Counted from the first letter of the stretch, positions 164-36,541 are shown. The stretch is 39,190 bases of DNA from Candidatus Woesearchaeota archaeon (GCA_964603525.1 CAZRVI010000002.1:1-39190), one strand, 5' to 3'. Numbers and translations: made by a program. Notes: generated from the letters alone by a model not told the origin.

Positions 164-604
164 TTATTTATTATCAACATTAGTACAATTTTTAATATCA
201 ACATTAACTAATTCACAACTAAATATCAATCCAGGACATTCAATTTCATATTCCGTTTTTTTATTCACACCCTTATCAATATAATCCAAAACTATATTAT
301 ACACACCAGGTTCATTAATTTGAGCAACTCTACTTTTAAAATCAACTTTTTCATCAGAAATATAATCTTTACTCCAACTCCCATTAACCTTAAATTTTAA
401 AATTGTAAAATCCAGAAATGGATCTTTCTTTTCAACAATAACTTCAATATCATTAACATAAATTTTATCATCATCAGAATAAACTTTTAAATTTAAAGAA
501 CCATCTTTCTTACACAAAACCTCATCAAACACTAAATCCCCCCTAACAAATCCAGATATTAAAATTAAAAATACAAAAATCAAAACTAATTTATAAAATC
601 GCAT
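164..604 (-). CDS. hypothetical secreted or membrane-anchored beta-rich protein
   Basis: N-terminal hydrophobic segment (LVLIFVFLILISGFV) followed by a beta-strand-like, Cys-containing body. Its ATG shares one base with the deoA stop (TAATG on the minus strand at 602-606), suggesting co-translation. The motif EPGVYNIVLDY weakly recalls EPGTYYFRLYD of the 4642-6364 paralog family. Confidence 0.55.
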   Translation of the reverse strand: MRFYKLVLIFVFLILISGFVRGDLVFDEVLCKKDGSLNLKVYSDDDKIYVNDIEVIVEKKDPFLDFTILKFKVNGSWSKDYISDEKVDFKSRVAQINEPGVYNIVLDYIDKGVNKKTEYEIECPGLIFSCELVNVDIKNCTNVDNK

Positions 605-2094
605 TATTCAATTTCAATAATCTTAACTTTATTAAAAACATCTAAAGTATAATTCAATCTTTTACTATTCTTAGAATATACAGTCAATAAAACATCACCT
701 TCTTTAACCTTATCTCCTTTATGCACATTTAAATAAATTCCAGCTTCCTTGTCAAATGGTGCACCAGCAATTCTTGCTATTCTTACCAAAGCCTTATTAT
801 CAATTCTTTTTACAACACCATTTTTCTTTGCCTTTACCATATAAGAATACTGCCCAATTTTAATATCTTCTGGTTTAATATCAGGATTACCCTCTTGCTC
901 TTTAATTATTTCCTTAAATTTTTCATATGCTTTACCAGATTCTAAAATCTCTCTTGCAGTTTCCTGATTACCTTTTCCAACCATTTTTAACATTAAACCA
1001 GCTATATGTATTGATTTTTCTTTTAAGTCCTTAGGTGCTCTTACATCATTCATTAAAACATATAAAACATCTCTTGCTTCCAAACTAGGTCCAATTCCAT
1101 TTCCAATAGGTTGTGTTCCATCAGTCATTATAACTTCCATCTTAATACCTAATTTTTTACCTAATTTATAAAACATTTTCCTTAAACGATTAGCTCTTTT
1201 CACACTTTCAATTTTAGCTCCAGGACCATAAGCAATATCAATTAGAACATGCGTAGCATTAACAGCCTTTTTCTTAGCCATTATGCTGCTCAATAAAATA
1301 CCTTCAGGATCTAAACTTAAAGGGTGTTCCATTTTAATTATCTTATCGTCTGCACTTGCTAAATCCATTGCACCACACCAAACAATACAACCATTAGTCT
1401 TCTCCACAATCTCTTTTATTTTATCTGTGGAAAAAGAAACATTTGCAAACACCTCAAAAACATCAGCTGTACCAGCAGCACTTGTAATTGCTCTTGAACT
1501 TGTTTTAGGTATGCAAACACCTGCAGCAGCAATTATAGGCACAACAATCATAGTGGTTCTATTACCAGGAGTCCCACCAGTTCCATGCTTATCTAATATA
1601 ATATTCCTATCTAATTTTAATTGTGCCCCATTATTCACAATAGCATTTGTTAATGCAACAGTTTCATTCATACTTAAGCCATGTGTATAGCATGCAGAAA
1701 CAAAAAATCCTAACTCAACCTCGCTTATTGTATTATCAACAACATCCTTAATAATAGCATTTATTTCCTCACTACTTAATTCTTGTCTATCTAATTTTTT
1801 CTTAATATAACTAATAGAATCAGGCTTTTTTTCAATACTAACATCAACTAACTCATTTTCCTTAACTCCTAATTTATCAAAAACCTCTTCAAACAAACCA
1901 ATTTCTCCGCTTCTAATACCTTTATTCTCGCAAATATTTACAACAGCAACAATATATTTTTCATCCTTCTTTATTTTTACTCTATCTAATGCATGCAAAT
2001 CCATTTTACTAGAATCCTCTTTATTTAATACAACTATTAAAGGACCCCCAGTAGATAAATTAACGTCTTTTACTTTTAGTTTCATGTTTCTCAC
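604..2094 (-). CDS. deoA: AMP phosphorylase (archaeal thymidine-phosphorylase-family enzyme with extra N-terminal domain)
   Basis: 496 aa. The N-terminal MKLKVKDVNLSTGGPLIVVLNKED...LDRVKI domain is typical of archaeal AMP phosphorylases. HGTGGTPGNRTT phosphate-binding motif, and a glycosyl-transferase family 3 core with a C-terminal PYNP-like domain (GDKVKEGDVLLTVYS). The real start could be the internal Met at 2085. Confidence 0.85.
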   Translation of the reverse strand: MRNMKLKVKDVNLSTGGPLIVVLNKEDSSKMDLHALDRVKIKKDEKYIVAVVNICENKGIRSGEIGLFEEVFDKLGVKENELVDVSIEKKPDSISYIKKKLDRQELSSEEINAIIKDVVDNTISEVELGFFVSACYTHGLSMNETVALTNAIVNNGAQLKLDRNIILDKHGTGGTPGNRTTMIVVPIIAAAGVCIPKTSSRAITSAAGTADVFEVFANVSFSTDKIKEIVEKTNGCIVWCGAMDLASADDKIIKMEHPLSLDPEGILLSSIMAKKKAVNATHVLIDIAYGPGAKIESVKRANRLRKMFYKLGKKLGIKMEVIMTDGTQPIGNGIGPSLEARDVLYVLMNDVRAPKDLKEKSIHIAGLMLKMVGKGNQETAREILESGKAYEKFKEIIKEQEGNPDIKPEDIKIGQYSYMVKAKKNGVVKRIDNKALVRIARIAGAPFDKEAGIYLNVHKGDKVKEGDVLLTVYSKNSKRLNYTLDVFNKVKIIEIE

Positions 2095-7183: not shown

Positions 7184-7879
7184 TTATTCTTTTAGCTTCT
7201 CTAAAACTTTTGGTAATTCATTAATGTCTTTAATAATAGCAAAGGGTTTTTCTTTTTTTAATATTCTTTTTGAATTTACACCAGTTAAAACAGCAATTGC
7301 TTTAGTATTACTTCTCCTTGCAGCAATAATATCGAAAGGACTATCACCAACATGAAATTTAATATCACTTCTCATTAACTTCTCAGCTTTAAATAATTCA
7401 TCAGGATAAGGCTTGCTCCTTTTAACATCATCCTTTCCTATTATAATATCAAACAAACTTTTCTTTAACCCAGCCCCTCTCATTAAAGAATTAATCTCTT
7501 TATGTGTACAATTACTAATCATACCAATTTTATAAATTTTTTTTAGTTTTTTCAATACAGGAACTACACCTTTAATTTTCTTTGCATATTTTCCATATTT
7601 TATACTGATTAATTTATGATGCTCCTTTGTTATTTTATCTACTTCCTTTTCAGAAAGTTTTGGAAATAAGTCTCTAACAACTTGATGAGCATGTCTTCCA
7701 TTCAAAAAAGGGATTAATTTTTGATATTTTATTTTTTTCAAATCAAATTTCTCAAAAGCTTCATTAAACGCCTTCCAATGGCATCTTTTAGCATGAATTA
7801 AGGTTTCATCTAAGTCAAATGTTATTATATATTTTCTTTTACCATTAACTATATTCTTTTTTCCTGTTTTCATATCCAT
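7184..7879 (-). CDS. HAD-superfamily (subfamily IA) phosphatase, phosphoglycolate/sugar-phosphate phosphatase-like
   Basis: Motif I FDLDETLI (DxDxT), motif II ISNCT, motif III K in RSKPYPD, motif IV VGDSPFDI. It overlaps the upstream e2b2-like gene by 10 nt. Confidence 0.8.
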   Translation of the reverse strand: MDMKTGKKNIVNGKRKYIITFDLDETLIHAKRCHWKAFNEAFEKFDLKKIKYQKLIPFLNGRHAHQVVRDLFPKLSEKEVDKITKEHHKLISIKYGKYAKKIKGVVPVLKKLKKIYKIGMISNCTHKEINSLMRGAGLKKSLFDIIIGKDDVKRSKPYPDELFKAEKLMRSDIKFHVGDSPFDIIAARRSNTKAIAVLTGVNSKRILKKEKPFAIIKDINELPKVLEKLKE

Positions 7880-8667
7880 CTATATTTTTTCTTAACTTTT
7901 TTAACAAATTTTTTAGGTTTTAAAACCCCTAATTCAGAAATTATTCCTTTAATATATTTATTTTTAATAATTTCAAAAGCAGGATTCTTAATTTTTATTT
8001 TTTTTGGTAATTTCTTCCAGACTTCTCTGAAATTTCTTTCTTCTATTTTAATATTTCTTGAAGAAAATTTCCATGAATCTGCACAGATATAAACAGGTAT
8101 TTTATAATCATAAGCAATATTAGCAAACATCCCAGAACCAACCTTATTCACAACATCACCATTTTTCAAAATAGCATCAGCACCAAATAAAACAATATGC
8201 TTTTTCTTATGATTTAAAGTCATTGCAATACCAGCAGCAGCATCAACAACTTGTATAACTTTAATACCATCTTTCGCTAATTCTTTTGCAGTTTTCCTTC
8301 CTTGATATAAAGGTCTTGTTTCTGTATTATACACCTTAAATTTTTTACCTTTCTCTTTAGCATATCTTAAAATATTTATTACAGTAGAACTATGACAATG
8401 TGTAAAAACAATTTCTTTAATAACTTTATAACCATAATTAATTATTTTTTTCTGTGATTCAAAAATATGTTCAATAGCTTTTTCTTGTCCATACTTTTTT
8501 GCAAATTTTAAAGAGTTTTTTAATAATGGTTCTGTTGGTCTAACTTTTAATAATTTTTTTTCAGAAAAACCTTTTAAACTCATTGCTTTAATTCCAGCAA
8601 TAGTAATATTAGTAGCCCCTTGAATTTTCACCTCTTTTATTTTTTTTAATAATTCCTTAAAATTCAT
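7870..8667 (-). CDS. e2b2: eIF-2B alpha/beta/delta-family isomerase, probable ribose-1,5-bisphosphate isomerase (short form)
   Basis: 265 aa. IQGATNITIAG, THCHSSTV, VYNTETRPLYQGRKTAKELAKDGI and FGADAILKNGDVVNKVGS are family hallmarks. The R15P-isomerase reading (rather than MTR-1-P isomerase) is inferred from AMP phosphorylase lying in the same window. Confidence 0.65.
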   Translation of the reverse strand: MNFKELLKKIKEVKIQGATNITIAGIKAMSLKGFSEKKLLKVRPTEPLLKNSLKFAKKYGQEKAIEHIFESQKKIINYGYKVIKEIVFTHCHSSTVINILRYAKEKGKKFKVYNTETRPLYQGRKTAKELAKDGIKVIQVVDAAAGIAMTLNHKKKHIVLFGADAILKNGDVVNKVGSGMFANIAYDYKIPVYICADSWKFSSRNIKIEERNFREVWKKLPKKIKIKNPAFEIIKNKYIKGIISELGVLKPKKFVKKVKKKYRWI

Positions 8668-9354
8668 TTAAAAATCCCTTTCTTTTAATTTTTTAGCAGG
8701 TATTCCAGTATAAACCATATTTGGTTTAGTATCTTTTGTTACAACAGCCCCAGCACCTATAAAAGATTCTCTTCTTAATCTGATAGCAGGTAAAATAATA
8801 GCGCCAGCACCAACACACACTTTTTCTTCAATAATTGGTCCTTTAAATTTTGGCATTTTTTCTTTTAAACTTATTCTAGATTTTGCTGTTTTTTCATTTG
8901 CAAATTTAACTCCAGGACCGATGAATACTTGATTTCCAATTTTAGAATGAGAACAAATATAAGAACTGCTATGAATCAAAACATTTTTACCAATTTTAAT
9001 ATAACCATCTAACACAGAATTAGTCCCAATAATACAATTATCTCCAATTACTGTTTCTTCTCGTATAAGAGCATTATGAAATACATTAACATTATCACCA
9101 ATTTTTACATTTTCATATATATTAACATTAGAGTAAATCATACAATTATCTCCAATTATTGTTTCAAACTTCTTTTCACTTACCCCTTTAATGCAACTTT
9201 TTAAATTTTCTAACATTGGAAAACCTATTATGGAGTTAGATCCTATATATGTGTTATTTCCTATTGTAACAGGTCCATATACTTTTACACCATTTTCTAT
9301 CTTAACATTTTTCCCCAGTTTAACATTTCCGATTAAAACATAATCTTTTTTCAT
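8668..9354 (-). CDS. left-handed beta-helix (hexapeptide-repeat) sugar N-acetyltransferase, WbpD/WlbB/PglD-like
   Basis: 228 aa made almost entirely of [LIV]-G-x-x-x-x hexapeptide repeats (IGNNTYIGSNSIIG, IGDNCIIGTNSVL, IGKNVLIHSSSYI, VGAGAIILPAIRL, IGAGAVVTKD). It lies divergent to a DegT aminotransferase. Confidence 0.8.
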   Translation of the reverse strand: MKKDYVLIGNVKLGKNVKIENGVKVYGPVTIGNNTYIGSNSIIGFPMLENLKSCIKGVSEKKFETIIGDNCMIYSNVNIYENVKIGDNVNVFHNALIREETVIGDNCIIGTNSVLDGYIKIGKNVLIHSSSYICSHSKIGNQVFIGPGVKFANEKTAKSRISLKEKMPKFKGPIIEEKVCVGAGAIILPAIRLRRESFIGAGAVVTKDTKPNMVYTGIPAKKLKERDF

Positions 9355-11682: not shown

Positions 11683-12477
11683 ATGAAAAACTTATTACTG
11701 ACTTTTGATGTAGAGGAGTTCTCATTACCTAGAGTATTATATAATCTTAATTTAAATAAAAAAGAACTTGAAATAAGTTATAAAGGTCTAAACAAGCTCT
11801 TGAAAATTTTAAATAAATATAAAGCAAAAGCAACTTTTTTTACAACAGCTTTCTTTGCAAAAAGCTATCCTAAATTAATCAAAAAACTATCAAAAACTCA
11901 TGAAGTAGCTTTGCACGGATTATACCATACAGACAATTATAGTGTTTTATCAAAACAAGAAGCTTATAAAAAAATTAAAGAAGCAAAACAGATACTAGAA
12001 AAAATAATCAATAAAAAAATATTGGGATTCAGGGCTCCTTTATTTTCTCCTCCTAATTATGATATTTTAAAAAAACTAAAATTCAAATATGACAGCTCTT
12101 TAAACCCAATCTTTCTCCCCGGAAACTATAATAATTTTTTTAAAAAAAGGAAAATTCATAAAAAACAAGATGTTTTTGTTTTACCTATCTCAGCAACACC
12201 TTTATTAAGACTTCCTCTTTCATGGATTTTTTTTAGAAATTTTGGATTAATTTATGCGAAAATCTGTACAAAATTATGTTTATTAGATCAAAAATATATA
12301 ATGTTATTATTCCATCCTTGGGAGTTTATTAATTTAAATCATTTAAAGATAGGAAAATTAATAAAAAGGAATACAGGAGAAAAATTAATCAAAATGTTGG
12401 ATTTATATTTGGAATGGTGTAATAAGAATAATATTAAAAATTCTACAATTAAAGATTATTTATTCTTTAGAAAATAA
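11683..12477 (+). CDS. polysaccharide deacetylase (NodB-homology/CE4-like, DUF3473-type)
   Basis: 264 aa. LLLTFDVEEF (the family-typical TFDVE start), ATFFTTA, HEVALHGLYH (His pair), and GFRAP. The ATG begins 1 nt after the radical SAM stop. Confidence 0.7.
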   Translation: MKNLLLTFDVEEFSLPRVLYNLNLNKKELEISYKGLNKLLKILNKYKAKATFFTTAFFAKSYPKLIKKLSKTHEVALHGLYHTDNYSVLSKQEAYKKIKEAKQILEKIINKKILGFRAPLFSPPNYDILKKLKFKYDSSLNPIFLPGNYNNFFKKRKIHKKQDVFVLPISATPLLRLPLSWIFFRNFGLIYAKICTKLCLLDQKYIMLLFHPWEFINLNHLKIGKLIKRNTGEKLIKMLDLYLEWCNKNNIKNSTIKDYLFFRK

Positions 12478-21838: not shown

Positions 21839-22807
21839 ATGAATCTCAAAAAAATTTTACCTTTTATAGGACTTTCAATTCTTTTTTTAATAATTTATAG
21901 AATAGGAATTAATAAAATTATTTTATCTTTAACCCAACCAAAGATTCCTTATTTAATTCTAGCATTAGTTCTTTCTTTTCTATCTATATTTGCACTTTCA
22001 TTTAAATGGTCTTTAATCCTTAAAAAACAAGGAATTAATCTTAACTATCTTTATTTAACTAAACTTTATTTTATAGGTTTATTCTATGGAACAATAACAC
22101 CTGCAAGAGCTGGTTCTTTAATCAGAGCTTATTACCTCAAAAATAAAATTAAAAAACCATTTGGTGAATGCGCTTCTTCAATAGTACTAGAAAGAGTTTT
22201 TGATTTATCAGTTATATTTATACTAGCTATAGCAGGCTGTTTATTATTAATTAATTATTTAACAACAAAAACTTTGCTTTATATTATAATAGCTTTTTTA
22301 ATTTTTATTGGTTTATTCGTATTTTTTATTAACAAAAAAAGAACAAAATTTATTTTTAAATTTATATATACTTTTTTAACTCCTAAAAAATTCAAAACTT
22401 TAATTAAAGATTCCTATGATTCTTTTTATACTAATATACCAAAATTTAATTCATTAATATTTCCTTTTCTATTTACTTTTATAAATTGGATTTTAGTATA
22501 TATGGTAAGTTATATAGTAGCTAAATCATTATCTATTAATATTCCTATTTATTACTTTATACCTATATATGCATTCTCAACAATTATTGCAATAATACCT
22601 ATAACTATAGCAGGACTAGGAACAAGAGAACTAACTTTAATTAGTTTATTTTCTATTTTTAATATTTTACCAGAGAAAGTAATAGCGTTATCTTTATTAA
22701 GTTTGATAATATCTTTATTTCCTATTACTTTGGGTTTTATATTTTCATTAAGGATTAAGGGTAAGAAAAATGAAATTTTCATTAATAATTCCAGTAGCAC
22801 CATATAG
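21839..22807 (+). CDS. UPF0104 / lysylphosphatidylglycerol-synthase-TM-region-like flippase-like membrane protein
   Basis: 322 aa with about 8 TM segments. The LYFIGLFYGTITPARAGSLIRAYYL motif (P-x-x-x-G...R) is characteristic of the family. It overlaps the downstream GT2 by 38 nt. Confidence 0.55.
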   Translation: MNLKKILPFIGLSILFLIIYRIGINKIILSLTQPKIPYLILALVLSFLSIFALSFKWSLILKKQGINLNYLYLTKLYFIGLFYGTITPARAGSLIRAYYLKNKIKKPFGECASSIVLERVFDLSVIFILAIAGCLLLINYLTTKTLLYIIIAFLIFIGLFVFFINKKRTKFIFKFIYTFLTPKKFKTLIKDSYDSFYTNIPKFNSLIFPFLFTFINWILVYMVSYIVAKSLSINIPIYYFIPIYAFSTIIAIIPITIAGLGTRELTLISLFSIFNILPEKVIALSLLSLIISLFPITLGFIFSLRIKGKKNEIFINNSSSTI

Positions 22808-23666
22808 AACAGCTCCAATTTTAAAATATATTAAAAATTTAGATTATCCTAAAGAGAACTATGAAGTTATAGTAGAATATGGAACAAATGCATCAGAAAA
22901 TCGTAATAAAGGAATACAAAAAGCAAAATATGATATTTTATGTTTCCTTGATGATGATGCTGAACTTCCTAAAGATTATTTAAAAAACATAGAGAAATTC
23001 TTTAAAAAATATCCAGAAATAGATGTTGTTGGAGGTCCACAACTAACACCAAAATCAGATCCTTTCTTTGCTAAAGTTTCTGGTTATATTTTATCATCTT
23101 TCCTAGGAACACATAAAATGAGTAACAGATATAAAAAAGGAAAATTAAATTTAGATGCAGATGAATCTTATTTAACATCAGCAAATTTAATCATTAAAAA
23201 ATCTGTTTTTAAGAAAACATCTAAATTTAACCCCGAACTTTGGGGAGGAGAAGATCCCGAACTAATACGCAGATTAAAAAAACTAGGGTTTAAAATAGCA
23301 TATTCTCCACAAATAATATTTTATCATAAAAGAAGACCAACATTCAAAGAATTCTGTAAACAATTTTTTCATTATGGCAAAGGATACGTTAATTACAAAA
23401 TGAGAACTTTGGGGGAAAGACCATCTTTATTGCATTTAATTCCAACAATTTTTATATTTTATTTAATATTGTTACCTTTTTTATATTATAATAATCCTTT
23501 ATTTGCAATACCTTTTATAGTTTATACCATCACTACTTTAGTATACTCTATTCTAATAATTAAATCTACTCATCATTATTCAGCATTCCCTTACTTACCC
23601 TTTTTATTTTTTGCAATACATATTTCATATGGTTTAGGCTTATTCAGGGGTTTAATTAAAAAATGA
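22770..23666 (+). CDS. GT2-family glycosyltransferase with C-terminal TM helices (polyprenol-phosphate hexose synthase-like, GtrB/AglD/AglJ-type)
   Basis: FSLIIPVAPYR, FLDDDAELP (DxD), GGEDPEL, then about 3 TM segments (LLHLIPTIFIFYLILLPFLYY...FFAIHISYGLGLF). Confidence 0.8.
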   Translation: MKFSLIIPVAPYRTAPILKYIKNLDYPKENYEVIVEYGTNASENRNKGIQKAKYDILCFLDDDAELPKDYLKNIEKFFKKYPEIDVVGGPQLTPKSDPFFAKVSGYILSSFLGTHKMSNRYKKGKLNLDADESYLTSANLIIKKSVFKKTSKFNPELWGGEDPELIRRLKKLGFKIAYSPQIIFYHKRRPTFKEFCKQFFHYGKGYVNYKMRTLGERPSLLHLIPTIFIFYLILLPFLYYNNPLFAIPFIVYTITTLVYSILIIKSTHHYSAFPYLPFLFFAIHISYGLGLFRGLIKK

Positions 23667-24934
23667 AATATACTCTACAAGGACCAAAAATAAACTTAAA
23701 AGTCCAAGAACACTTTAATATAATAATTAGTATAATAAAAAAAGAAATACCAAATATTTTAAGTATAATGCTCGCAGGAAGCTTTGGGCTTGGAGAAGGT
23801 CCTGTTAAATTAATAAAAAATAAAATTTATCCTTTTAATGATTATGATATTTATTTAATAACTAAACGAAAAATAAAATCAAAAAAAATTAATAAAATTG
23901 ATAAAGAAATCTCAAATAAACTTAATTTTATGTCAAAACTTTCATTCCATAAATTTACTAAGAAAAAAAAGACTTTCAGAAATACTTTTTTTGTTGATTT
24001 AAAAACATTTTCATATAACAAGTTAAAAAACCTTTCACCAAGATTAAGAAATTATGCAATGAAAAAAGCTACTAAAATCTTATATGGAAAAGATTTTAGG
24101 TATTTAATCCCAAATTATTCTTTAAGCGATATCCCTTTATCAGATCCAGCAAAGCTATTATTAGATAGGTTTAATCAACTTGTAGAATATTATTCTTTAA
24201 ATAGAGATAGTGATCCATATATCTTAGCATACAAAATTCAAGCAGCTTATTCTGCATGTTCAACAGCCTTGTTAATGCTAAGACGAAAATTTAATTGTTC
24301 TTATTTAAAATCTGCACAGATATTGAATAAAATTTATAAAAAAGAATTTCCAGAATTATATAAAAAATTACCTAACTTGCATCTAAAGATTAAAAAATAT
24401 GTTTATTGGAAAGCAAATCCTAATAAATTACCTGCTAAAGATCTTAAACAAGAGTTATTTAAAGCAATATACAATACTTCTGAAGTAACAAAATATTTTT
24501 TCTCAAAATTTTTATCCAAAAAAATATCAAATAAAAATGATTTATCTAATGCATTGTTAAAAATGAGCAAAGAATTCTATAAACCTTATATAAAATATAA
24601 ACTTGCTTTTAAATCAGATTTAGTATATAACATTCTATTCCCACTTATTAAATTGTTTTTAAAATATAAATACTTTTTAAGAGTTAGAAAAATAAGCAAA
24701 AAATTTTATTTCAAAATATTTTTTAACAAATATACACCAGATTCCTATATATATGCAGCAATACCGTATCTAGTTTTATCCATAGATTATAATAATAAAA
24801 TAAATAAATCTGATATTAATAAATTAAAAGAAATAATAAAAAAAGTATATCCTCTAAAAGGTAAAATATGGGAAGAACTAAGTTTAATATTTAGAAATGC
24901 ATACACAGCATTTTTCTTTCAAGATTTTGAATAA
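23663..24934 (+). CDS. hypothetical protein with possible N-terminal nucleotidyltransferase (Pol-beta/LicD-like) fold
   Basis: 423 aa. LAGSFGLGEG...PFNDYDIYLIT (G-S ... D-x-D) and a later FFVDLKTF strand fit an NTase-fold signature with a longer than usual spacer. The remaining ~300 aa are lysine-rich and helical with no recognisable motif. ATGA overlap with the upstream GT2. Confidence 0.4.
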   Translation: MKYTLQGPKINLKVQEHFNIIISIIKKEIPNILSIMLAGSFGLGEGPVKLIKNKIYPFNDYDIYLITKRKIKSKKINKIDKEISNKLNFMSKLSFHKFTKKKKTFRNTFFVDLKTFSYNKLKNLSPRLRNYAMKKATKILYGKDFRYLIPNYSLSDIPLSDPAKLLLDRFNQLVEYYSLNRDSDPYILAYKIQAAYSACSTALLMLRRKFNCSYLKSAQILNKIYKKEFPELYKKLPNLHLKIKKYVYWKANPNKLPAKDLKQELFKAIYNTSEVTKYFFSKFLSKKISNKNDLSNALLKMSKEFYKPYIKYKLAFKSDLVYNILFPLIKLFLKYKYFLRVRKISKKFYFKIFFNKYTPDSYIYAAIPYLVLSIDYNNKINKSDINKLKEIIKKVYPLKGKIWEELSLIFRNAYTAFFFQDFE

Positions 24935-24936
24935 AA

Positions 24937-26034
24937 ATGAAGAAAAAGCGATTGATAGTTTGTTTGGATGGATTAGGTTATGCTGAAATATCCAAAGATA
25001 AAACTCCTTTCTTATACTCATTTGCTAAAAAAAATTATATCGCTAGACTTAAAACTCTCTTAGCATTTACAGGAATAGAATATAGTTTCTTTAATGGAAA
25101 TTTACCTGATGACCATAAAGTCTTTCTAGAATTTAAATATTCGCCAAAAACAAGTTGTTTTAAATGGCAAAAGTATTTTTGGTTTTTAGGTAGAAATTTT
25201 CTTTCATACACAACTGCTTTATTCCAATATATCTTTAGTAAAGGTTATTTAACAAAACTCTATAGTATCCCATTAAATATAATTCACAATTTTGATGTTT
25301 CAACTAAGAAAGGGCCTTGGGATCTAAAAATGTTTAAGAACAAAAATTATGTCCTTTTTAAATGGCCTTTATTAGTTAAAAATGGAAAAAAAACTTTAAA
25401 ATTATTTAATTATTCTGATTTTAAAAGATGCCAATTAATAATAAATTCTATATCAAAGAACATAGATTTATATGCTGTTCATCTTGTAGAATTAGATAAA
25501 GTAGCACACAAACATGGAAAAGATACTTTTAAATATACTCAACAAATCAAGAAACTAGATAAATTAGCTAAATTTTTAGTCACCAATTTCAAGAAAAAAA
25601 TCCCTGATATAGAAGTAATCTTTTGGTCTGATCATTATTTTATAAACATTAAAAAGATAATAAATATTAAAAACCTTTTACCAAAATCAAATGATTATTT
25701 AGTATTTATTGGAGGAACATCTCTTTCCTTTTGGTTTAAAAATAAAAAAATAAAAAAAACAATAATAAATCTTCTTAAAAAGATAAAGGAAGGTTATATT
25801 TTAACAGAAAAGGAAAGAAAAAAATATAATATTCCCACAAATATCGAAAATGGAGAACTTATTTTTGTTGTGAAACCAGGCAATTATATATTTCCAAATT
25901 ATTATCAAGCAAAAATTCCTTATAAAGCAATGCATGGCTATGAACCTGATAAATATAATTCAGACGGGATTCTTATAACAGATATAAAACTAAAGAAAAA
26001 ATCTTATTCTTTGGACGAAATAATTAATCTTTAA
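24937..26034 (+). CDS. alkaline-phosphatase-superfamily metalloenzyme (type I phosphodiesterase/nucleotide pyrophosphatase-like)
   Basis: LIVCLDGLGYAEI (metal Asp). AFTGIEYSFFNGNLPDDHKV has T ... G-x-x-P-x-x-H spacing like the NPP nucleophile region. HLVELDKVAHKHG (D..H) and FWSDHYF (DH) are also present. The ATG lies 2 nt after the upstream stop. Confidence 0.55.
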   Translation: MKKKRLIVCLDGLGYAEISKDKTPFLYSFAKKNYIARLKTLLAFTGIEYSFFNGNLPDDHKVFLEFKYSPKTSCFKWQKYFWFLGRNFLSYTTALFQYIFSKGYLTKLYSIPLNIIHNFDVSTKKGPWDLKMFKNKNYVLFKWPLLVKNGKKTLKLFNYSDFKRCQLIINSISKNIDLYAVHLVELDKVAHKHGKDTFKYTQQIKKLDKLAKFLVTNFKKKIPDIEVIFWSDHYFINIKKIINIKNLLPKSNDYLVFIGGTSLSFWFKNKKIKKTIINLLKKIKEGYILTEKERKKYNIPTNIENGELIFVVKPGNYIFPNYYQAKIPYKAMHGYEPDKYNSDGILITDIKLKKKSYSLDEIINL

Positions 26035-27496
26035 CTTCGTAGATAATCAAAATAGGTTTGTTATTTAAATTATAAATCTTAATAGGTTTAAATCTTTCTT
26101 TATATTCTCCAAAATATGTATAAACCCACTCTGGATGTTGTTCAAAAATAGAAACTACAACATATTTCGGTTTTAATTCATTCAACTGCCTTTCAAATTC
26201 TTCTCTATTTGCTTCATAACCATAAACAAATCTTTCAGAATAATAAGTATATTGTGGTGCAGATTGACAAATTACAACATCTCCAGGGTTTGTATGTTTT
26301 TTTATCCATAATGCAGATTGTTTTACTTCTAAATAAGAATTTTTTTTAAACTTTATAATCTCATTAGCAGCACTAATTTGAGAATATGCTCCAGCAAATA
26401 GTATTACAAGAACAAAAATACTCGCCAATTTTTTATTATGTTTTTTAATATAATTATGAACTTTTAATAAACCAACCCCAGCAAGAATAAAAATTGCAGG
26501 ATAAGCCCATATAAAATATCTTTCTTGCACATATTCGCTAAAATATCCATGATATACTAAAGGAACTAAAATCCAAAATAAAATAAAAATTAGTTTCATT
26601 AATTTTTTGTTCTTAAATATCATATCAAAACCAATAAACAAATCAACAAACACTCCGCAACCAATTAAAAACATTATAAACATAAACCAACTTGTATTAA
26701 CAATAATATCTTTAAAATAATTCCAAATTCCTTTTAGTTTCATATAATTTGGAGTTGGACCTTCTTTTATACCAATACTTGTGTAATGTTTAATAAAATC
26801 TCTTATTCCTCCAGGATAATGTTCTTTATATTTAATAAAAAAAGGAGTTAATATTAAGAATATTATTAGAAAGAATATCCAAAGATGTTTACTTTTCAAA
26901 AATCTTAATTTTTCTTTTAATAAAACAAGAATTCCTAAAGGGATTATTGCTAAAAAAAAGGCAAACTTACTGAAAAAAGACAAGCCGATTAATACTCCTG
27001 ACAACCAAATATACCAATATTTTTCTTCTTTAAAATAACCTTTCCAAAACAACCACAACCCAGAAATAAAAAAGCAAGTTGCAGGAATTCCAACTAACAG
27101 TCTTCCTGTTAAAAATAAATGAATTCTACAAATACTCATTCCAAAAGCAGCAATTAATCCAACTTTTTTATTAAACATTTCTTTTCCAAGTAAATAAGTA
27201 AATAATATAGTTAAAAAAGAAAACAAAAGTTCTGTAAGTCTTAATGCTAATTCACTTCCACCTATTTTAAAGATTAAACCCCAAAACAAAGGCAAGAAAA
27301 GTGGTCTTCTATAATACCATAAACTTTTTACATGTTCTAAACTTAAACCAATTCTTTTTGCTTCACTAAGATAATCTCCTTCATCCCACCAAACTGGTTG
27401 ATTATATGTAATAGAAAAAACCCATATTCTTAATATCAAAGCGAAAATTAATATTCCGAACAAAATTAATACATATTTGTTTTTTGTTTTCAACAT
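26024..27496 (-). CDS. GT-C glycosyltransferase, ArnT/PMT-like (GT39/GT83-type, dolichyl/undecaprenyl-phosphate sugar dependent)
   Basis: 490 aa. The first periplasmic loop reads NQPVWWDEGDYLSEAKR (DE motif). About 11-12 TM segments, then a soluble C-terminal domain (~100 aa). Confidence 0.7.
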   Translation of the reverse strand: MLKTKNKYVLILFGILIFALILRIWVFSITYNQPVWWDEGDYLSEAKRIGLSLEHVKSLWYYRRPLFLPLFWGLIFKIGGSELALRLTELLFSFLTILFTYLLGKEMFNKKVGLIAAFGMSICRIHLFLTGRLLVGIPATCFFISGLWLFWKGYFKEEKYWYIWLSGVLIGLSFFSKFAFFLAIIPLGILVLLKEKLRFLKSKHLWIFFLIIFLILTPFFIKYKEHYPGGIRDFIKHYTSIGIKEGPTPNYMKLKGIWNYFKDIIVNTSWFMFIMFLIGCGVFVDLFIGFDMIFKNKKLMKLIFILFWILVPLVYHGYFSEYVQERYFIWAYPAIFILAGVGLLKVHNYIKKHNKKLASIFVLVILFAGAYSQISAANEIIKFKKNSYLEVKQSALWIKKHTNPGDVVICQSAPQYTYYSERFVYGYEANREEFERQLNELKPKYVVVSIFEQHPEWVYTYFGEYKERFKPIKIYNLNNKPILIIYEVKD

Positions 27497-30404: not shown

Positions 30405-31271
30405 TTACTTTGTACTTTCTACCCTTTTCCATACATCCATAACCTTTTTTTTACTAAATTTATCATAAAAACTTAACAACCAACTATATAATCTCGCAGG
30501 AAATAATAATAAGGTATAGCAAAATTCCTTTAAATTTTTAGGATAACTTAAAGCTTTATACCAACCATAAAAAACTTCATTAAAAAAAGATTTCATTTGT
30601 GGAACATCCCTTAATAATCTTTTTGCATGATTATGCCCCATAGCATTTCTTCTTTTCTGTTTTATCCAATCTTTTAAATTAGAAGGATTTTTAATATAAG
30701 CAATAGCTTTAGGTTCATATTTTATTTTATAACCTTTCTTTAAAACTAACATAGAAATATAAGCATCATCTAAAACATCTTCTGGTAATTTTTCAAATAA
30801 TTTTTTCCTTATAGCAAAAATATAACCTGAACAAAACATAGGCATATTCTTTTTATCTCTTATTAATCTTTCAATATGTGCTGAATCATTTAATAAATGT
30901 GCCCAATATCCAAATAAAGTTTTTTTATTATCTAAAGCCACAGGTCTTCCAGTTACAGCACCTATTTTTCTGTCTTTAAAATGTTTTATTAGTTCATTTA
31001 CAGAATTATTACTTACATAAACGTCACCATCACTTAAAACAATAATATCACCTTTAGCTTTTTCAAAAGCTAAATTTAAAGCTGATGGCTTCCCTTTTCC
31101 TTTATCCTTTAAACATTTTACTTTATATTTTCTTGCTTTATCTAAAGTTTTTTTATCAGGTGCAACAACAATAACTTCATATTTTTCCTTTATTTTTTGC
31201 TTAAGAAAACTTTCTATAGCCCTACCTATTGTTTTTGGTTCTTTATAACTTGTTATTATAATAGATATCAT
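30405..31271 (-). CDS. GT2-family glycosyltransferase (PgaC/NodC-like catalytic domain, degenerate QxxRW)
   Basis: ISIIITSYKEPKTI, VLSDGDVYV (DxD-type), CSGYIFAIRK, DDAYIS and KQKRRNAMGH (aligned position of Q-x-x-R-W, with W replaced). It lacks the multi-TM region of processive synthases. Confidence 0.8.
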   Translation of the reverse strand: MISIIITSYKEPKTIGRAIESFLKQKIKEKYEVIVVAPDKKTLDKARKYKVKCLKDKGKGKPSALNLAFEKAKGDIIVLSDGDVYVSNNSVNELIKHFKDRKIGAVTGRPVALDNKKTLFGYWAHLLNDSAHIERLIRDKKNMPMFCSGYIFAIRKKLFEKLPEDVLDDAYISMLVLKKGYKIKYEPKAIAYIKNPSNLKDWIKQKRRNAMGHNHAKRLLRDVPQMKSFFNEVFYGWYKALSYPKNLKEFCYTLLLFPARLYSWLLSFYDKFSKKKVMDVWKRVESTK

Positions 31272-34519: not shown

Positions 34520-35174
34520 TTTTTAACTTAGCAAATATATTAAGTCCAAACACCAAAGTTATTTTGTTAATAAAATTGTTTTCTGTATAGTTCTTCCATA
34601 TTCTCTTCAGAAAAGGAATATATAAATAATATGTAACTATTTTATTTATCTTTAAATCACTTTTTTTTAATATAGAATGGAGTAGTAAAGGATTAAAATT
34701 CCATAAGTGGGTTGGATCTCCACTAAATTTTTTTCCTCTTAACCAACAAAAGAATTTTATAAGTGCCCAATGATTTATTGTCGATAATACTAAAATTCCA
34801 CCTGGTTTAAGTAACTTTTTAATTTTTTTTAATATTTCAATTGGTTTAGATAAGTGTTCAATAACTTGAATCATAACAATTTTATCATAAAGTCCTTTAA
34901 TATTATCTTTTTCGATATCCTTGACTTCAAACTTAATAGATTTATATTTTCTTTTAGCAATCCTAATAGCTTCTTTATTTATATCAATTCCTTTAACTTT
35001 CACACCAAGCTTTTTTAAGAGATAACAAAATTCACCGGTGTTACATCCAATTTCTAGAATTTTTTCACCCTGTTCTGGTTTTAATAATTTAAGGACATAT
35101 TTAAATTCTAATTCCTCTTCAGGTTTAATCTTCTCATGATTTTTTGCATATTTAAAGTTATAATAAATTTTCAC
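34509..35174 (-). CDS. class I SAM-dependent methyltransferase (Methyltransf_11-like)
   Basis: Motif I ILEIGCNTGEF, GIDIN, YDKIVMIQVIEHLSKP, GGILVLST. GTG start overlapping the upstream stop (GTGA at 35171-35174). Confidence 0.8.
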   Translation of the reverse strand: MKIYYNFKYAKNHEKIKPEEELEFKYVLKLLKPEQGEKILEIGCNTGEFCYLLKKLGVKVKGIDINKEAIRIAKRKYKSIKFEVKDIEKDNIKGLYDKIVMIQVIEHLSKPIEILKKIKKLLKPGGILVLSTINHWALIKFFCWLRGKKFSGDPTHLWNFNPLLLHSILKKSDLKINKIVTYYLYIPFLKRIWKNYTENNFINKITLVFGLNIFAKLKNES

Positions 35175-36541
35175 TTTTTAAATGTAATTATTCCTAAATG
35201 TTTTATAGCATGTTTAACTCTCTTCCAATTTGGAAGATTTCCTTCGGATAAAATTCTAAATAATTTTTTTAAATATCCTCTATACAGTATTCTTCTTTCG
35301 ATACTCATTTTAACTTTCATTAAAATATCATCTGGTATCTTACTAACATTTATAGTCATATAATGAAAATCAGATTGTTGTGCCCATTCTTCTATTGATT
35401 TTGGTTCATTAATCAAACCCCTTTTAATACAATAATCATAAGTTTCTGTTGGAGGCAATGGTTGATAGATTCCTAATCCAATATAATCTGGAGGATTTTG
35501 TTTAATAAAATGTATTGTTTGATTTAAATCTTCCATAGTTTCATCAGGAGTTCCTATCATAAAACTCGCTCCACTAAATATTTTAAATTTCCTACATTTT
35601 CTTATTGCATCTCTGCCTTGTTGAACAGTTGTACCTTTTTTTAAAAAATTAAGAACTCTTTGACTACCACTTTCAATACCCATTTGTAAAGTCCAAACAC
35701 CAGCTTTTTTATAAGCTTTTAGTATTTCTTCATTAACCAAATTCACTCTAGAAAAAATAAACATTTTTAAATCAAGATGTTGAATATTCTTTAATATTTC
35801 CAGAGCCCTTTTTTTATTTGAGGGAAAATTATCATCAGGTATACAAATTCTCTTATCCTTATACTTTTCATATAACCTAGTAATAAGTTCTATCGAATTT
35901 TGGGTTGATAAATTTCTATAATTTTCAAATCTTTTTTTACCCCAAAGATAATTATTATAACAAAAAGCACAACGATAAGGACAACCACGACTTGTACTAA
36001 TATAAAACATATCATAATTTTTTACATTTACTAAATCATAATTGGGAAAAGGCAATTCATCGAGATTTGCAAATGACCTAAAAGGATTTAAATCCAAACC
36101 TTTTACTTTTGAAATATCCCTTCCTTTTTCAATCAAATTAGCAATCTCAAGCATAGTATATTCACCTTCTCCTCTTACTATATGATCAACTAAAGGATGT
36201 TCTAACGTATTTCTTGGAACAGCAGTAGGGTGAAATCCTCCCCAAATAACTAAAGCATTAGAATTTTCTTTTACAACTTTTGATACATTTAAAGCATCAT
36301 AAAGAACTCTTCCAGTCATAGTACTGATTCCAACTATATCCGGATCAAAACGTTTAAGTTCTTTTATTAATACTTCATTTTTAATATTATCTCCAAGATT
36401 ACGATCAAATATTTTTACTTTATGATTATATTTCTCTAGCATAGTTCCTATGTATATAAGTCCTAAAGGCATTGTAGCATCATAATCTTTGTTTTCTGTT
36501 TTATAAGAAAAACAAGCTTGTACAAGAAGAACCCTTGTCAT
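35171..36541 (-). CDS. B12-binding-domain radical SAM enzyme (class B radical SAM methyltransferase-like)
   Basis: N-terminal cobalamin-binding-type domain (VLLVQA...MPLGLIYIGTMLEKYNHKVKIFD...PDIVGISTMT...VIWGGFHPT...VRGEGE), followed by TSRGCPYRCAFCYN (CX3CX2C). Confidence 0.85.
   Translation of the reverse strand: MTRVLLVQACFSYKTENKDYDATMPLGLIYIGTMLEKYNHKVKIFDRNLGDNIKNEVLIKELKRFDPDIVGISTMTGRVLYDALNVSKVVKENSNALVIWGGFHPTAVPRNTLEHPLVDHIVRGEGEYTMLEIANLIEKGRDISKVKGLDLNPFRSFANLDELPFPNYDLVNVKNYDMFYISTSRGCPYRCAFCYNNYLWGKKRFENYRNLSTQNSIELITRLYEKYKDKRICIPDDNFPSNKKRALEILKNIQHLDLKMFIFSRVNLVNEEILKAYKKAGVWTLQMGIESGSQRVLNFLKKGTTVQQGRDAIRKCRKFKIFSGASFMIGTPDETMEDLNQTIHFIKQNPPDYIGLGIYQPLPPTETYDYCIKRGLINEPKSIEEWAQQSDFHYMTINVSKIPDDILMKVKMSIERRILYRGYLKKLFRILSEGNLPNWKRVKHAIKHLGIITFKK

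What the first reader, a model, noticed from the sequence alone, without database searches (positions are those of the whole stretch)
23663..26034. Uncharacterised nucleotidyltransferase-fold protein + alkaline-phosphatase-superfamily enzyme at the end of the aglB-aglH operon
A 423-aa protein overlaps the upstream GT2 by ATGA. Its only recognisable feature is an NTase-like G-S...D-x-D signature (LAGSFGLGEG...NDYDIYL, later FFVDL). Two nt downstream lies a 365-aa protein with AP-superfamily/NPP-like metal and nucleophile motifs (CLDGLG, AFTG...NGNLPDDH, DKVAHKHG, SDH). NTase-fold LicD/fukutin-type enzymes transfer phospho-alcohols (phosphocholine, ribitol-P, glycerol-P) from CDP-donors onto glycans. 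AP-superfamily enzymes transfer or hydrolyse phospho-substituents (phosphoethanolamine or phosphoglycerol transferases, NPPs). The pair may therefore install or edit a phosphodiester-linked decoration on the glycan. The large helical C-terminal part of the first protein is entirely unassigned.
Basis: inference. Interest (0 to 1): 0.6.

Follow-up and report, generated by a model that had tools for sequence, protein, structure and literature searches.

The report
Conserved nucleotidyltransferase-phosphodiesterase glycan enzyme pair
Two adjacent genes in the surface-sugar gene island of a tiny DPANN archaeon encode an antibiotic-adenylyltransferase-like enzyme and a cytoplasmic phosphodiesterase-like enzyme; the pair recurs, sometimes fused, next to a glycosyltransferase in many archaea and bacteria, so it probably carries out an undescribed step in sugar-chain assembly.

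Summary
Both ORFs, the ATGA overlap, the 2-nt spacer and all quoted motifs are present.

**Protein 1 (423 aa).** This is a Pol-beta-fold nucleotidyltransferase, but not LicD/fukutin-like. Its model matches aminoglycoside O-nucleotidyltransferases best: ANT(3'')(9), Z 13.9. It has an MNT-type core, a HEPN-like helical domain, and about 135 further helical residues that remain unassigned.

**Protein 2 (365 aa).** This is a soluble NPP-fold enzyme (ENPP4 and Xac NPP, Z about 28). It is not a phosphomutase or a sulfatase. All six metal ligands are conserved. The canonical Thr nucleophile (T45 here) is not conserved among orthologues.

**Linkage.**
- The two genes are adjacent or near each other in 9 of 9 DPANN loci.
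- They co-occur in 22 of 23 diverse metagenome loci of at least 12 kb.
- They appear to be co-inherited (pairwise identities r = 0.88).
- One contig encodes them as a single fused protein.
- A GT2 is nearly always present, and is sometimes fused to the phosphodiesterase.
- B12-radical-SAM enzymes are sometimes fused to the transferase.

**Best reading.** A two-step nucleotidyl activation and resolution module that serves the GT2. The chemistry is inferred, not shown.

This scan found the same pair on other DNA three times before. I found no published characterisation.

The parts
22770..23666 (+). Membrane-anchored GT2 (298 aa, DDD motif, 3 C-terminal TM segments). It is the near-universal partner of the pair.
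   Evidence: Pfam GT2 families. KD hydropathy gives TM segments at 217-296. Orthologues lie in the GT2_a neighbour cluster found in 39 loci. AP-GT2 fusions occur in L080, L081 and L078.
23663..24097 (+). NTase423 residues 1-145: MNT-type Pol-beta nucleotidyltransferase core (G39-S40, GEG 44-46, D60, D62, D112).
   Evidence: Pfam Polbeta E 4e-4, below the gathering score. MNT structures give Z 9.5-10.5 on residues 1-143. G39, G44, E45, G46, D60 and D62 are at least 97% conserved, and D112 83%, in 155 family members.
24125..24523 (+). NTase423 residues 155-287: HEPN-like four-helix domain, equivalent to the substrate-binding domain of ANT/KNTase enzymes. It has no Rx4-6H RNase motif (R169-x5-E175 here).
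   Evidence: HEPN structures give Z 9.5-11.2. The whole of residues 6-283 aligns to ANT(3'')(9) 7uy4_B with Z 13.9, 223 residues aligned, rmsd 3.5. Foldseek best hits are AAD(9) and AadA, E 4e-6 to 1e-4.
24524..24931 (+). NTase423 residues 288-423: extra helical C-terminal extension, fold not assigned.
   Evidence: AF2 model pLDDT about 87-96 in this part. It is barely covered by structural matches.
24937..26034 (+). AP365: soluble NPP-fold binuclear metalloenzyme. Metal ligands are D11, D187, H191, D232, H233 and H333. T45 sits at the canonical nucleophile position. The family-specific motif is D259-x-T261-x-x-R264-F-W266 (G259 and S264 in this protein).
   Evidence: Pfam Phosphodiest 59.8 bits. 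PDB profile hits to ENPP4/6/5/7 and Xac NPP. Foldseek TM about 0.7. VIA Z 27.9 to ENPP4 against 16-17 for iPGM and sulfatases. Conservation. No TM segment or signal peptide.
21839..22807 (+). LPG_synthase_TM / TIGR00374 flippase-like membrane protein; a recurrent neighbour.
   Evidence: Pfam 6.6e-50 and TIGR00374 9e-34. Found in 14 related loci.
26024..27496 (-). GT-C (PMT_2/ArnT-like) glycosyltransferase. It is convergent and overlaps AP365 by 11 nt. It is conserved near the pair in DPANN loci.
   Evidence: Pfam PMT_2 3e-16. Present in L004-L010 and in 10 loci overall.
35171..36541 (-). B12-binding radical SAM enzyme, an orthologue of the recurrent partner family that is fused to the NTase in other organisms.
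   Evidence: Pfam B12-binding plus Radical_SAM. Matched by 34 of 37 members of the neighbour cluster. rSAM-NTase fusions occur in L073, L078 and L079.
30405..31271 (-). Second GT2 of the same GT2_a neighbour cluster.

Best explanation
The two genes form a cytoplasmic two-enzyme module that works with the GT2 encoded just upstream. Step 1 (inferred from fold and an intact active site): the 423-aa enzyme, built like aminoglycoside O-nucleotidyltransferases, uses an NTP and Mg2+ (D60, D62, D112) to put a nucleoside monophosphate on a hydroxyl or phosphate of a sugar-type intermediate, releasing pyrophosphate. Step 2 (inferred): the 365-aa NPP-fold enzyme, with a complete two-metal site, attacks the new phosphodiester or anhydride phosphorus and releases the nucleotide. 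My preferred version is that the nucleotide is a transient handle or activating group. In many organisms B12-radical-SAM enzymes would edit the intermediate while the handle is attached, and it would be removed before or as the GT2 uses the product. This is the logic of Fom1, Fom3 and FomD in fosfomycin biosynthesis. A net phosphate-linked decoration is the alternative outcome. Shown here: the folds, the conserved catalytic residues, soluble proteins, tight and ancient gene linkage, gene fusions, and the glycan-locus setting. Not shown: the nucleotide used, the acceptor, the order of steps, or any physical contact.
For: AF2 models are confident: pLDDT 90.8 and 93.8. The NTase matches ANT(3'')(9) at Z 13.9 over residues 6-283, plus MNT and HEPN domains. 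The motifs G39, GEG and D60-x-D62 are at least 97% conserved in 155 relatives. AP365 is NPP-fold, Z 26-28 with 315-323 residues aligned, and its six metal ligands are at least 96% conserved in 54 relatives. Both proteins lack TM segments and signal peptides. Linkage: 9 of 9 DPANN loci; 11 of 13 NTase-bearing genomes in a 401-genome phylum sample carry both genes on one contig; AP lies within 2 kb in about 55 of 89 loci and is present in 22 of 23 loci of at least 12 kb, with GC from 26 to 65%. Partner identities correlate at r = 0.88, and 0 of 500 permutations reach that value. Fusions: AP+NTase in L084, B12-rSAM+NTase in L073 and L078/79, AP+GT2 in L080, L081 and L078. An 813-aa Phosphodiest-bearing Atlas cluster matches the NTase model at TM 0.78. 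A GT2 is present in 21 of 23 loci of at least 12 kb and a B12-rSAM in 11 of 23. The window itself holds orthologues of both. Precedent for transient nucleotidylation followed by B12-rSAM editing and then hydrolysis: PMC8158854.
Against: There is no biochemical evidence for any member. The canonical NPP Thr/Ser nucleophile position is variable in the family (T, K, L, A, S, D, E, R, Q, C), so the second enzyme cannot work exactly like characterised NPPs. A B12-rSAM is absent from about half of the long loci and is 9 kb away on the other strand here, so the handle-for-rSAM version cannot be general. ANT-type enzymes leave a stable NMP adduct, and nothing shows the adduct is removed here. Z scores of 9-11 for helical HEPN-like bundles can arise from a common arrangement (note). 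Correlated divergence is expected for any two genes that share genomes.
Confidence: 0.45

Rival explanations
1. Activate-and-transfer of a phospho-substituent, following the LicC/LicD or TarI/TarL logic with the roles swapped relative to the first reader. The NTase would make an NDP-alcohol or NDP-sugar from X-phosphate plus NTP. The AP-superfamily enzyme would transfer phospho-X onto the glycan and release NMP. The result would be a phosphodiester-linked decoration.
For: AP-superfamily enzymes include phospho-alcohol transferases, and EptA, MCR-1, LtaS and GacH appear at Z 14-15. PfkB sugar kinases, a possible source of X-phosphate, occur in 15 loci. Basic residues K134, K194, R217 and K250 are conserved in the wider NTase family, which would suit an anionic acceptor. 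AP-GT2 fusions place the AP domain at the glycan-building step. Nucleotidyl activation before cell-surface tailoring is known for phosphonates (abstract of PMC6697681).
Against: Known NDP-sugar and NDP-alcohol synthases are not Pol-beta-fold enzymes (established knowledge). AP365 is far closer to NMP-releasing NPPs (Z 27-28) than to the phospho-alcohol transferases (Z about 15). The covalent nucleophile those transferases use is not conserved here. No kinase lies in this window.
Confidence: 0.2
2. A regulatory writer/eraser pair. The NTase would AMPylate (or NMPylate) a protein such as the GT2, and the NPP-like enzyme would remove the mark.
For: Protein-AMPylating enzymes appear among the structural matches: MntA-type MNT at Z 10.5, DrrA at 9.3, GlnE at 7.8-8.4. 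NPPs release AMP from phosphodiesters (established knowledge).
Against: Fusions to a radical SAM enzyme and to glycosyltransferases, together with the strict one-to-one adjacency, look like a metabolic pathway rather than a regulator. The best whole-protein match is to small-molecule ANT enzymes (Z 13.9).
Confidence: 0.08
3. A non-canonical nucleotide-sugar synthesis route. AP365 would act as a phosphosugar mutase or phosphatase, and the NTase as a sugar-1-phosphate nucleotidyltransferase supplying the GT2. This parallels HldE/GmhB.
For: The AP superfamily contains phosphomutases. Pfam Metalloenzyme matches weakly (20.8 bits). PfkB kinases are recurrent neighbours. A GT2 needs an activated donor.
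Against: Metalloenzyme is below its gathering score of 24.3. iPGM scores only Z 16-17 against 27-28 for NPPs. Mutases need the covalent Ser/Thr nucleophile, which is not conserved. The genome already has three canonical NTP_transferase genes.
Confidence: 0.07
4. One reading: protein 1 is a LicD/fukutin-type phosphotransferase using CDP-alcohol donors, and protein 2 edits the substituent.
For: LicD/fukutin enzymes belong to the NTase fold and carry a DxD motif (established knowledge). The setting is a glycan locus.
Against: Pfam LicD does not match P0001 at E<=0.1 or any frame of the genome at E<=0.001. The protein has the GSxxxGEG...DxD MNT-type motif and an ANT-like helical domain. PF01467 is not found and IspD scores only 20.4 bits, below its cut-off, in the 84.5%-complete genome.
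Confidence: 0.05
5. An MNT-HEPN-type toxin-antitoxin or defence element that merely sits in the glycan island.
For: The MNT and HEPN domain matches.
Against: There is no Rx4-6H HEPN RNase motif. PADLOC finds nothing. The neighbours are consistently glycan enzymes across GC 26-65%. Fusions are to biosynthetic enzymes.
Confidence: 0.02

Closest known systems
Aminoglycoside O-nucleotidyltransferases ANT(3'')(9)/AadA, AAD(9), ANT(4')/KNTase (PDB 7uy4, 6sxj, 5lpa, 1kny)
   Same: An N-terminal Pol-beta/MNT core with G[SG]...DxD plus a third carboxylate, followed by a helical substrate-binding domain. Z 13.9 and 12.8; Foldseek E 4e-6. These enzymes put an NMP on hydroxyls of sugars or cyclitols.
   Different: Sequence identity is only 10-15%. 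The protein is 423 aa against about 250-260, with an extra helical extension of about 135 residues. It has a beta-hairpin between the G-loop and DxD. No Pfam NTP_transf_2 or AadA_C match passes threshold. It is embedded in glycan loci with an obligatory NPP-like partner, not in resistance contexts.
Nucleotide pyrophosphatase/phosphodiesterases (Xac NPP 2gsn/7mw8; ENPP4, 5, 6, 7)
   Same: Pfam PF01663 above the gathering score. Z 26-28 over 315-323 residues. Six metal ligands with NPP-like spacing.
   Different: It is cytoplasmic, with no signal peptide or TM segment. The Thr/Ser nucleophile position is not conserved among orthologues. The position of the NPP oxyanion Asn appears to be E65/F66, judged from spacing only. 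It has its own invariant T261 and a DxTxxRFW motif. Identity to NPPs is 14-18%.
Fom1 cytidylyltransferase domain, Fom3 (B12-rSAM) and FomD in fosfomycin biosynthesis
   Same: The logic of transient nucleotidylation, then B12-radical-SAM editing of the nucleotidylated intermediate, then hydrolytic removal of NMP (PMC8158854). Here rSAM-NTase fusions occur with an adjacent NMP-releasing-type hydrolase.
   Different: The protein families at the nucleotidylation and hydrolysis steps are not homologous: Fom1's cytidylyltransferase domain and FomD are of other families (my own knowledge; PMC8158854 does not give them). The substrate there is a phosphonate, not a glycan intermediate. This is an analogy only.
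LicD / fukutin / FKRP phosphotransferases
   Same: NTase-fold superfamily, a DxD motif, and glycan-tailoring contexts.
   Different: No PF04991 match. The motif pattern differs and an ANT-type helical domain is present. No CDP-alcohol synthase was found in the genome.
MNT-HEPN modules (MntA/HepT, HI0073/HI0074)
   Same: The two domains resemble MNT (Z about 10) and HEPN (Z about 10-11) fused in one chain.
   Different: No HEPN RNase motif, no toxin-antitoxin context, and a much larger protein.

Membership tests
Pol-beta-superfamily nucleotidyltransferase, ANT/KNTase-type (MNT core + helical domain) | hG[GS] loop, DxD, and a third acidic residue on the adjacent strand | tested here: met
   G39-S40, D60-x-D62 and D112. 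These are 97-100% conserved (D112 83%) in 155 relatives.
Pol-beta-superfamily nucleotidyltransferase, ANT/KNTase-type (MNT core + helical domain) | Two-domain fold superposable on ANT enzymes | tested here: met
   7uy4_B Z 13.9, 223 residues aligned, rmsd 3.5; 6sxj_A Z 12.8. Foldseek probability 1.00, E 4e-6.
Pol-beta-superfamily nucleotidyltransferase, ANT/KNTase-type (MNT core + helical domain) | Match to a curated sequence family (PF01909, PF18765 or PF13427) above threshold | tested here: not met
   Only PF18765 at 20.8 bits, below the 26.9 cut-off. NCBIfam finds none. PDB phmmer finds none.
Pol-beta-superfamily nucleotidyltransferase, ANT/KNTase-type (MNT core + helical domain) | NTP-dependent O-nucleotidylylation activity | not testable with these tools
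   Needs an enzyme assay.
LicD/fukutin phosphotransferases | PF04991 profile match | tested here: not met
   No match at E<=0.1 on P0001. No match at E<=0.001 in six frames of the whole genome, while the control rings in Lactococcus.
LicD/fukutin phosphotransferases | Fold closest to FKRP/LicD-type catalytic domain | tested here: inconclusive
   Not among the listed matches. Absence from a list does not exclude it.
LicD/fukutin phosphotransferases | CDP-alcohol donor supply in the genome | tested here: inconclusive
   PF01467 none. PF01128 at 20.4 bits, below its cut-off. The genome is only 84.5% complete.
NPP family (PF01663) of the alkaline-phosphatase superfamily | Profile match above the gathering score, and the NPP fold | tested here: met
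   59.8 bits against 23. Z 27.9, 27.6 and 27.6 to ENPP4, Xac NPP and ENPP6.
NPP family (PF01663) of the alkaline-phosphatase superfamily | Six ligands of the binuclear metal site | tested here: met
   D11, D187, H191, D232, H233 and H333 are invariant in A2 and at least 96% conserved in 54 relatives.
NPP family (PF01663) of the alkaline-phosphatase superfamily | Conserved Thr/Ser nucleophile at the N-terminus of the helix after strand 2 | tested here: not met
   T45 is present in this protein. The column reads T in only 14 of 54 relatives, otherwise E, R, D, K, L, A, Q or C. Syntenic DPANN orthologues have K (L002), L (L009) and A (L006). The alignment in this loop is uncertain by 1-3 positions, but no neighbouring column is a conserved S/T either.
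NPP family (PF01663) of the alkaline-phosphatase superfamily | Secreted or ecto-enzyme location | tested here: not met
   No signal peptide or TM segment. The first beta-strand with D11 starts at residue 5. Maximum KD19 is 0.82.
Phosphopentomutase / cofactor-independent PGM (PF01676) | Profile match above threshold and closest fold | tested here: not met
   PF01676 at 20.8 bits, below 24.3. iPGM Z 16.3-16.8 against NPP 27-28.
Sulfatase / EptA / LtaS branch (PF00884) | Profile match and closest fold | tested here: not met
   No PF00884 match. Sulfatases Z <=16.9; LtaS, EptA, MCR-1 and GacH Z 14-15.5.

The most novel reading that the evidence does not exclude
A widespread, undescribed 'nucleotidyl-handle' route in glycan assembly. 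A KNTase-like enzyme would tag a sugar intermediate with an NMP. B12-radical-SAM enzymes, sometimes fused to that enzyme, would edit the tagged intermediate. An NPP-fold enzyme that has given up the canonical covalent Thr nucleophile would then remove or transfer at the tag, directly feeding a fused or adjacent GT2.
Probability: 0.25. Interest if true: 0.8.

Novelty: new variant of a known kind. Interest (0 to 1): 0.6.

Why it matters
Both folds are familiar, but this linked, sometimes fused, NTase/NPP-like/GT2 module has no assigned chemistry. Five literature searches found no characterisation of it. The module occurs in surface-glycan loci from DPANN archaea to contigs of up to 65% GC that are probably bacterial. 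The Atlas look-alike clusters are mostly bacterial: Chloroflexota, Verrucomicrobiota and Pseudomonadota. Solving it would define a new tailoring or donor-making step for cell-surface sugars. It would also give a physiological role to relatives of antibiotic adenylyltransferases. Finally, it would reveal how an NPP-fold enzyme works without its canonical nucleophile. In ultra-small symbiotic archaea, the cell surface is the interface with the host.

Tried and rejected
Contexts came from the search for related loci and the genome search instead.
- A search for longer (fused) homologues of P0001 by words found none. Fusions were instead found in metagenome loci and in the Atlas.
- The broad alignment A3 was too diverse for a pattern scan, so A4 was used.
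- NCBIfam gave no match for either protein.
- PDB phmmer with single sequences found nothing.
- PADLOC found nothing, so the defence reading was set aside.
- No LicD/FKRP chain appeared in either structural search of the NTase model.
- The Atlas search with P0002 did not return the fused cluster.
- Cluster look-ups gave only 'hypothetical protein' or no name at all.
- Literature searches for the pair found nothing relevant.


Full report
**Observation.** The window is a whole 39,190-bp contig, about 25% GC. It belongs to a 0.72-Mb, 45-contig, 84.5%-complete genome. The closest loci come from Woesearchaeota, Pacearchaeota and Nanoarchaeota MAGs, so it is a DPANN archaeon. ORFs 23663-24934 (423 aa, P0001) and 24937-26034 (365 aa, P0002) exist as described. 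The ATGA overlap with the upstream GT2 and the 2-nt spacer between the two genes are both present. The two genes close a + strand run: SpoIIM-like, AglB (STT3), GT4/AglH-like, LPG_synthase_TM flippase-like, GT2. A convergent GT-C (PMT_2) gene overlaps the 3' end of P0002 by 11 nt. The wider window from 7184 to 39190 is one glycan island. It holds aminotransferases, GT1/GT2/GT9 glycosyltransferases, methyltransferases, a B12-radical-SAM enzyme, a SPASM radical-SAM enzyme, a deacetylase and a carbamoyltransferase.

**Protein 1.**
- Sequence libraries barely see it. Pfam Polbeta scores 20.8 bits, below its gathering score. NCBIfam, single-sequence PDB search and PADLOC find nothing.
- It is nonetheless a sizeable family: 641 representatives of 50%-identity clusters at E<=1e-3, nearly all 380-480 aa. 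Where any name is given, it is 'hypothetical protein'.
- An AF2 model built from ten homologues is confident (pLDDT 90.8, pTM 0.91).
- Foldseek and the exhaustive VIA search agree on the fold. The best whole-protein matches are aminoglycoside O-nucleotidyltransferases: ANT(3'')(9) 7uy4_B at Z 13.9 (223 residues, rmsd 3.5, model residues 6-283), AAD(9) at Z 12.8, and AadA and KNTase by Foldseek at E 4e-6 to 2e-3.
- Residues 1-145 match minimal nucleotidyltransferases (Z 9.5-10.5). Residues 155-287 match HEPN-type four-helix domains (Z 9.5-11.2).
- The motif G39-S40-F-G-x-G44-E45-G46 ... D60-x-D62 ... D112 is the MNT/KNTase signature. It is 97-100% conserved (D112 83%) across 155 relatives. The enzyme should therefore be active.
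- The HEPN RNase motif is absent (R169-x5-E175).
- The last 135 or so residues are helical and remain unassigned.
- Nothing supports a LicD/fukutin assignment. PF04991 matches neither the protein nor any frame of the genome.
- The genome shows no TagD-type cytidylyltransferase and no IspD above cut-off. It does have three ordinary sugar-1-P nucleotidyltransferases.

**Protein 2.**
- Pfam Phosphodiest scores 59.8 bits (cut-off 23). Metalloenzyme is below its cut-off.
- A 23-sequence profile hits ENPP4/6/5/7 and Xac NPP at E 4e-14 to 2e-10.
- The model (pLDDT 93.8) superposes on NPPs at Z 26-28 over 315-323 residues.
- Other branches score well below NPPs: PhnA 23.6, PafA-type phosphatases about 21, iPGM and sulfatases 16-17, LtaS/EptA/GacH 14-15.5.
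- The six metal ligands (D11, D187, H191, D232, H233, H333) are invariant or nearly so. Their spacing matches Xac NPP; that comparison rests on my own reading against the known numbering.
- The protein is soluble, with no signal peptide, unlike characterised NPPs.
- One feature does not fit the family. The position of the catalytic Thr (T45 here, at the N-terminus of helix 45-53) is variable among orthologues: T in 14 of 54, otherwise E, R, D, K, L, A, Q or C.
- This variability extends to syntenic DPANN orthologues, which have K, L and A. No adjacent column holds a conserved Ser or Thr.
- The family instead has its own invariant T261, within a D-x-T-x-x-R-F-W motif.
- The family therefore probably does not use the textbook covalent phospho-Thr mechanism, or it uses another nucleophile.

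**Linkage.**
- In nine complete DPANN loci the NTase gene is always followed on the same strand by the AP gene. The two are either adjacent or separated by one radical-SAM gene.
- In an even sample of 401 genomes of the phylum, 13 carry a full-length NTase and 15 a strong AP365-type match. Eleven have both on the same contig within 2 kb. One further genome has a shorter NTase relative directly beside the AP gene.
- A metagenome scan seeded with more distant relatives gave 80 loci with GC of 26-65%.
- An AP365-family gene lies within 2 kb in about 55 of the 89 loci, and 2-7 kb away in 7 more. It is missing with room to spare in only 8.
- Among loci of at least 12 kb, the AP gene is present in 22 of 23.
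- Pairwise identities of the two partners correlate at r = 0.88 across 49 loci, and 0 of 500 label permutations reach that value. Shared ancestry alone would also produce some correlation.
- Rosetta-stone fusions tie four families together:
  - AP+NTase in one 806-aa ORF (L084);
  - B12-radical-SAM+NTase (L073, L078/L079);
  - AP+GT2 (L080, L081);
  - AP+GT2+WbsX+GT1 in a 1929-aa protein (L078).
- The ESM Atlas independently lists a 103-member, 813-aa, Phosphodiest-bearing bacterial cluster whose model matches the NTase model at TM 0.78.
- Recurrent neighbours are GT2 (39 loci, and 21 of 23 long loci), B12-rSAM (24-26), NAD-epimerase (22), GT1 (19), PfkB kinase (15), flippase-like (14), MocA oxidoreductase (11), GT-C (10) and EpsG-like (10).
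- The window holds orthologues of the GT2 (two copies), the B12-rSAM, GT1s, the flippase-like protein, the GT-C and a methyltransferase.
- The conserved core is therefore GT2 + NTase + AP. The association with aglB is specific to this archaeal lineage.

**Mechanism.** What is shown is a pair of soluble enzymes with intact active sites, inherited and sometimes fused together, always in glycan loci and almost always with a GT2. What follows is inference.
- ANT-type enzymes transfer an NMP from an NTP to a hydroxyl of a sugar or cyclitol.
- NPP-type enzymes act at phosphodiester or anhydride phosphorus and release a nucleoside monophosphate.
- The simplest coupled reading has the first enzyme creating an NMP-linked intermediate and the second resolving it.
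- The fusions of the NTase to B12-radical-SAM enzymes recall fosfomycin biosynthesis. There, a cytidylyl handle is added, Fom3 methylates the cytidylylated intermediate, and FomD hydrolyses the handle (PMC8158854).
- I therefore prefer a transient-handle or activation model (0.45).
- The main rival is activate-and-transfer of a phospho-substituent, which would leave a phosphodiester decoration (0.2).
- Protein AMPylation control, a phosphomutase route to NDP-sugars, the LicD reading and a toxin-antitoxin reading are less likely, for the reasons listed with each.
- In the wider family the helical domain keeps basic residues K134, K194, R217 and K250. The DPANN clade replaces K194 and R217 with Q and S, and has R127 and K114 instead. 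This may mean a different acceptor.

**Relation to earlier work.** After I had found the fusions, the scan's index showed that three earlier follow-ups on other DNA had reached the same pair and the same closest structures: a Verrucomicrobia locus, a bacterial polysaccharide locus and another DPANN genome. My results agree with theirs. As far as the index excerpts show, this report adds four things: the non-conservation of the NPP nucleophile; the family-specific T261 motif; the B12-rSAM-NTase fusions set beside the Fom1/Fom3/FomD precedent; and the phylum-level co-occurrence count. I found no published characterisation.

**Verdict.** This is a real, conserved, uncharacterised enzyme module of known folds in a new combination: a new variant of a known kind, of moderate to high interest.

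Noticed in passing
L006:13510-17883, L004:3140-7554, L009:7560-11946, L010:12363-16270; window 21839-23666 and 11683-12477: DPANN relatives carry two or three B12-radical-SAM genes downstream of the AP gene whose best NCBIfam match is HpnJ (well below cut-off), an HpnA-like epimerase and a methyltransferase. Together with the HpnL-like flippase-like gene, an HpnI-like GT2 (weak match) and a deacetylase in the window, the set resembles the hopanoid cyclitol-ether side-chain toolkit. This hints at a cyclitol or ring-contracted sugar in these archaea.
   Followed up: partly
L078:9034-14820: A 1929-aa single ORF combines Phosphodiest, GT2, WbsX and GT1 domains. It sits directly after an 806-aa B12-rSAM+NTase fusion.
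   Followed up: partly
L063:7647-10229 and L063:13905-16431: Two separate NTase-AP pairs lie on one 65%-GC contig, so the whole module appears to have been duplicated.
   Followed up: no
window 35171-36541 and relatives: Cobalamin-dependent radical SAM enzymes are present in genomes of only 0.5-1.1 Mb, which raises the question of where these symbionts obtain B12.
   Followed up: no
window 23663-24934 (residues 194 and 265): The window's NTase departs from its own family at two otherwise conserved positions: W265 is L, and K/Q194 is A.
   Followed up: no
window 604-2094 and 7184-9354: An AMP-phosphorylase-like gene (Glycos_transf_3 + PYNP_C), an IF-2B-family (ribose-1,5-bisphosphate isomerase-like) gene, a hexapeptide transferase and a HAD hydrolase flank the glycan island. 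These may be parts of the archaeal AMP salvage route.
   Followed up: no
L006:5426-6316 and L006:6427-7341: A 297-aa protein with no Pfam or NCBIfam match and a PHP_C/CehA-like metallohydrolase sit between the flippase-like gene and the GT2 in a relative. Neither is present in the window.
   Followed up: no
window 26024-26034: The 3' ends of the AP gene and the convergent GT-C gene overlap by 11 nt, leaving no room for a terminator between them.
   Followed up: no
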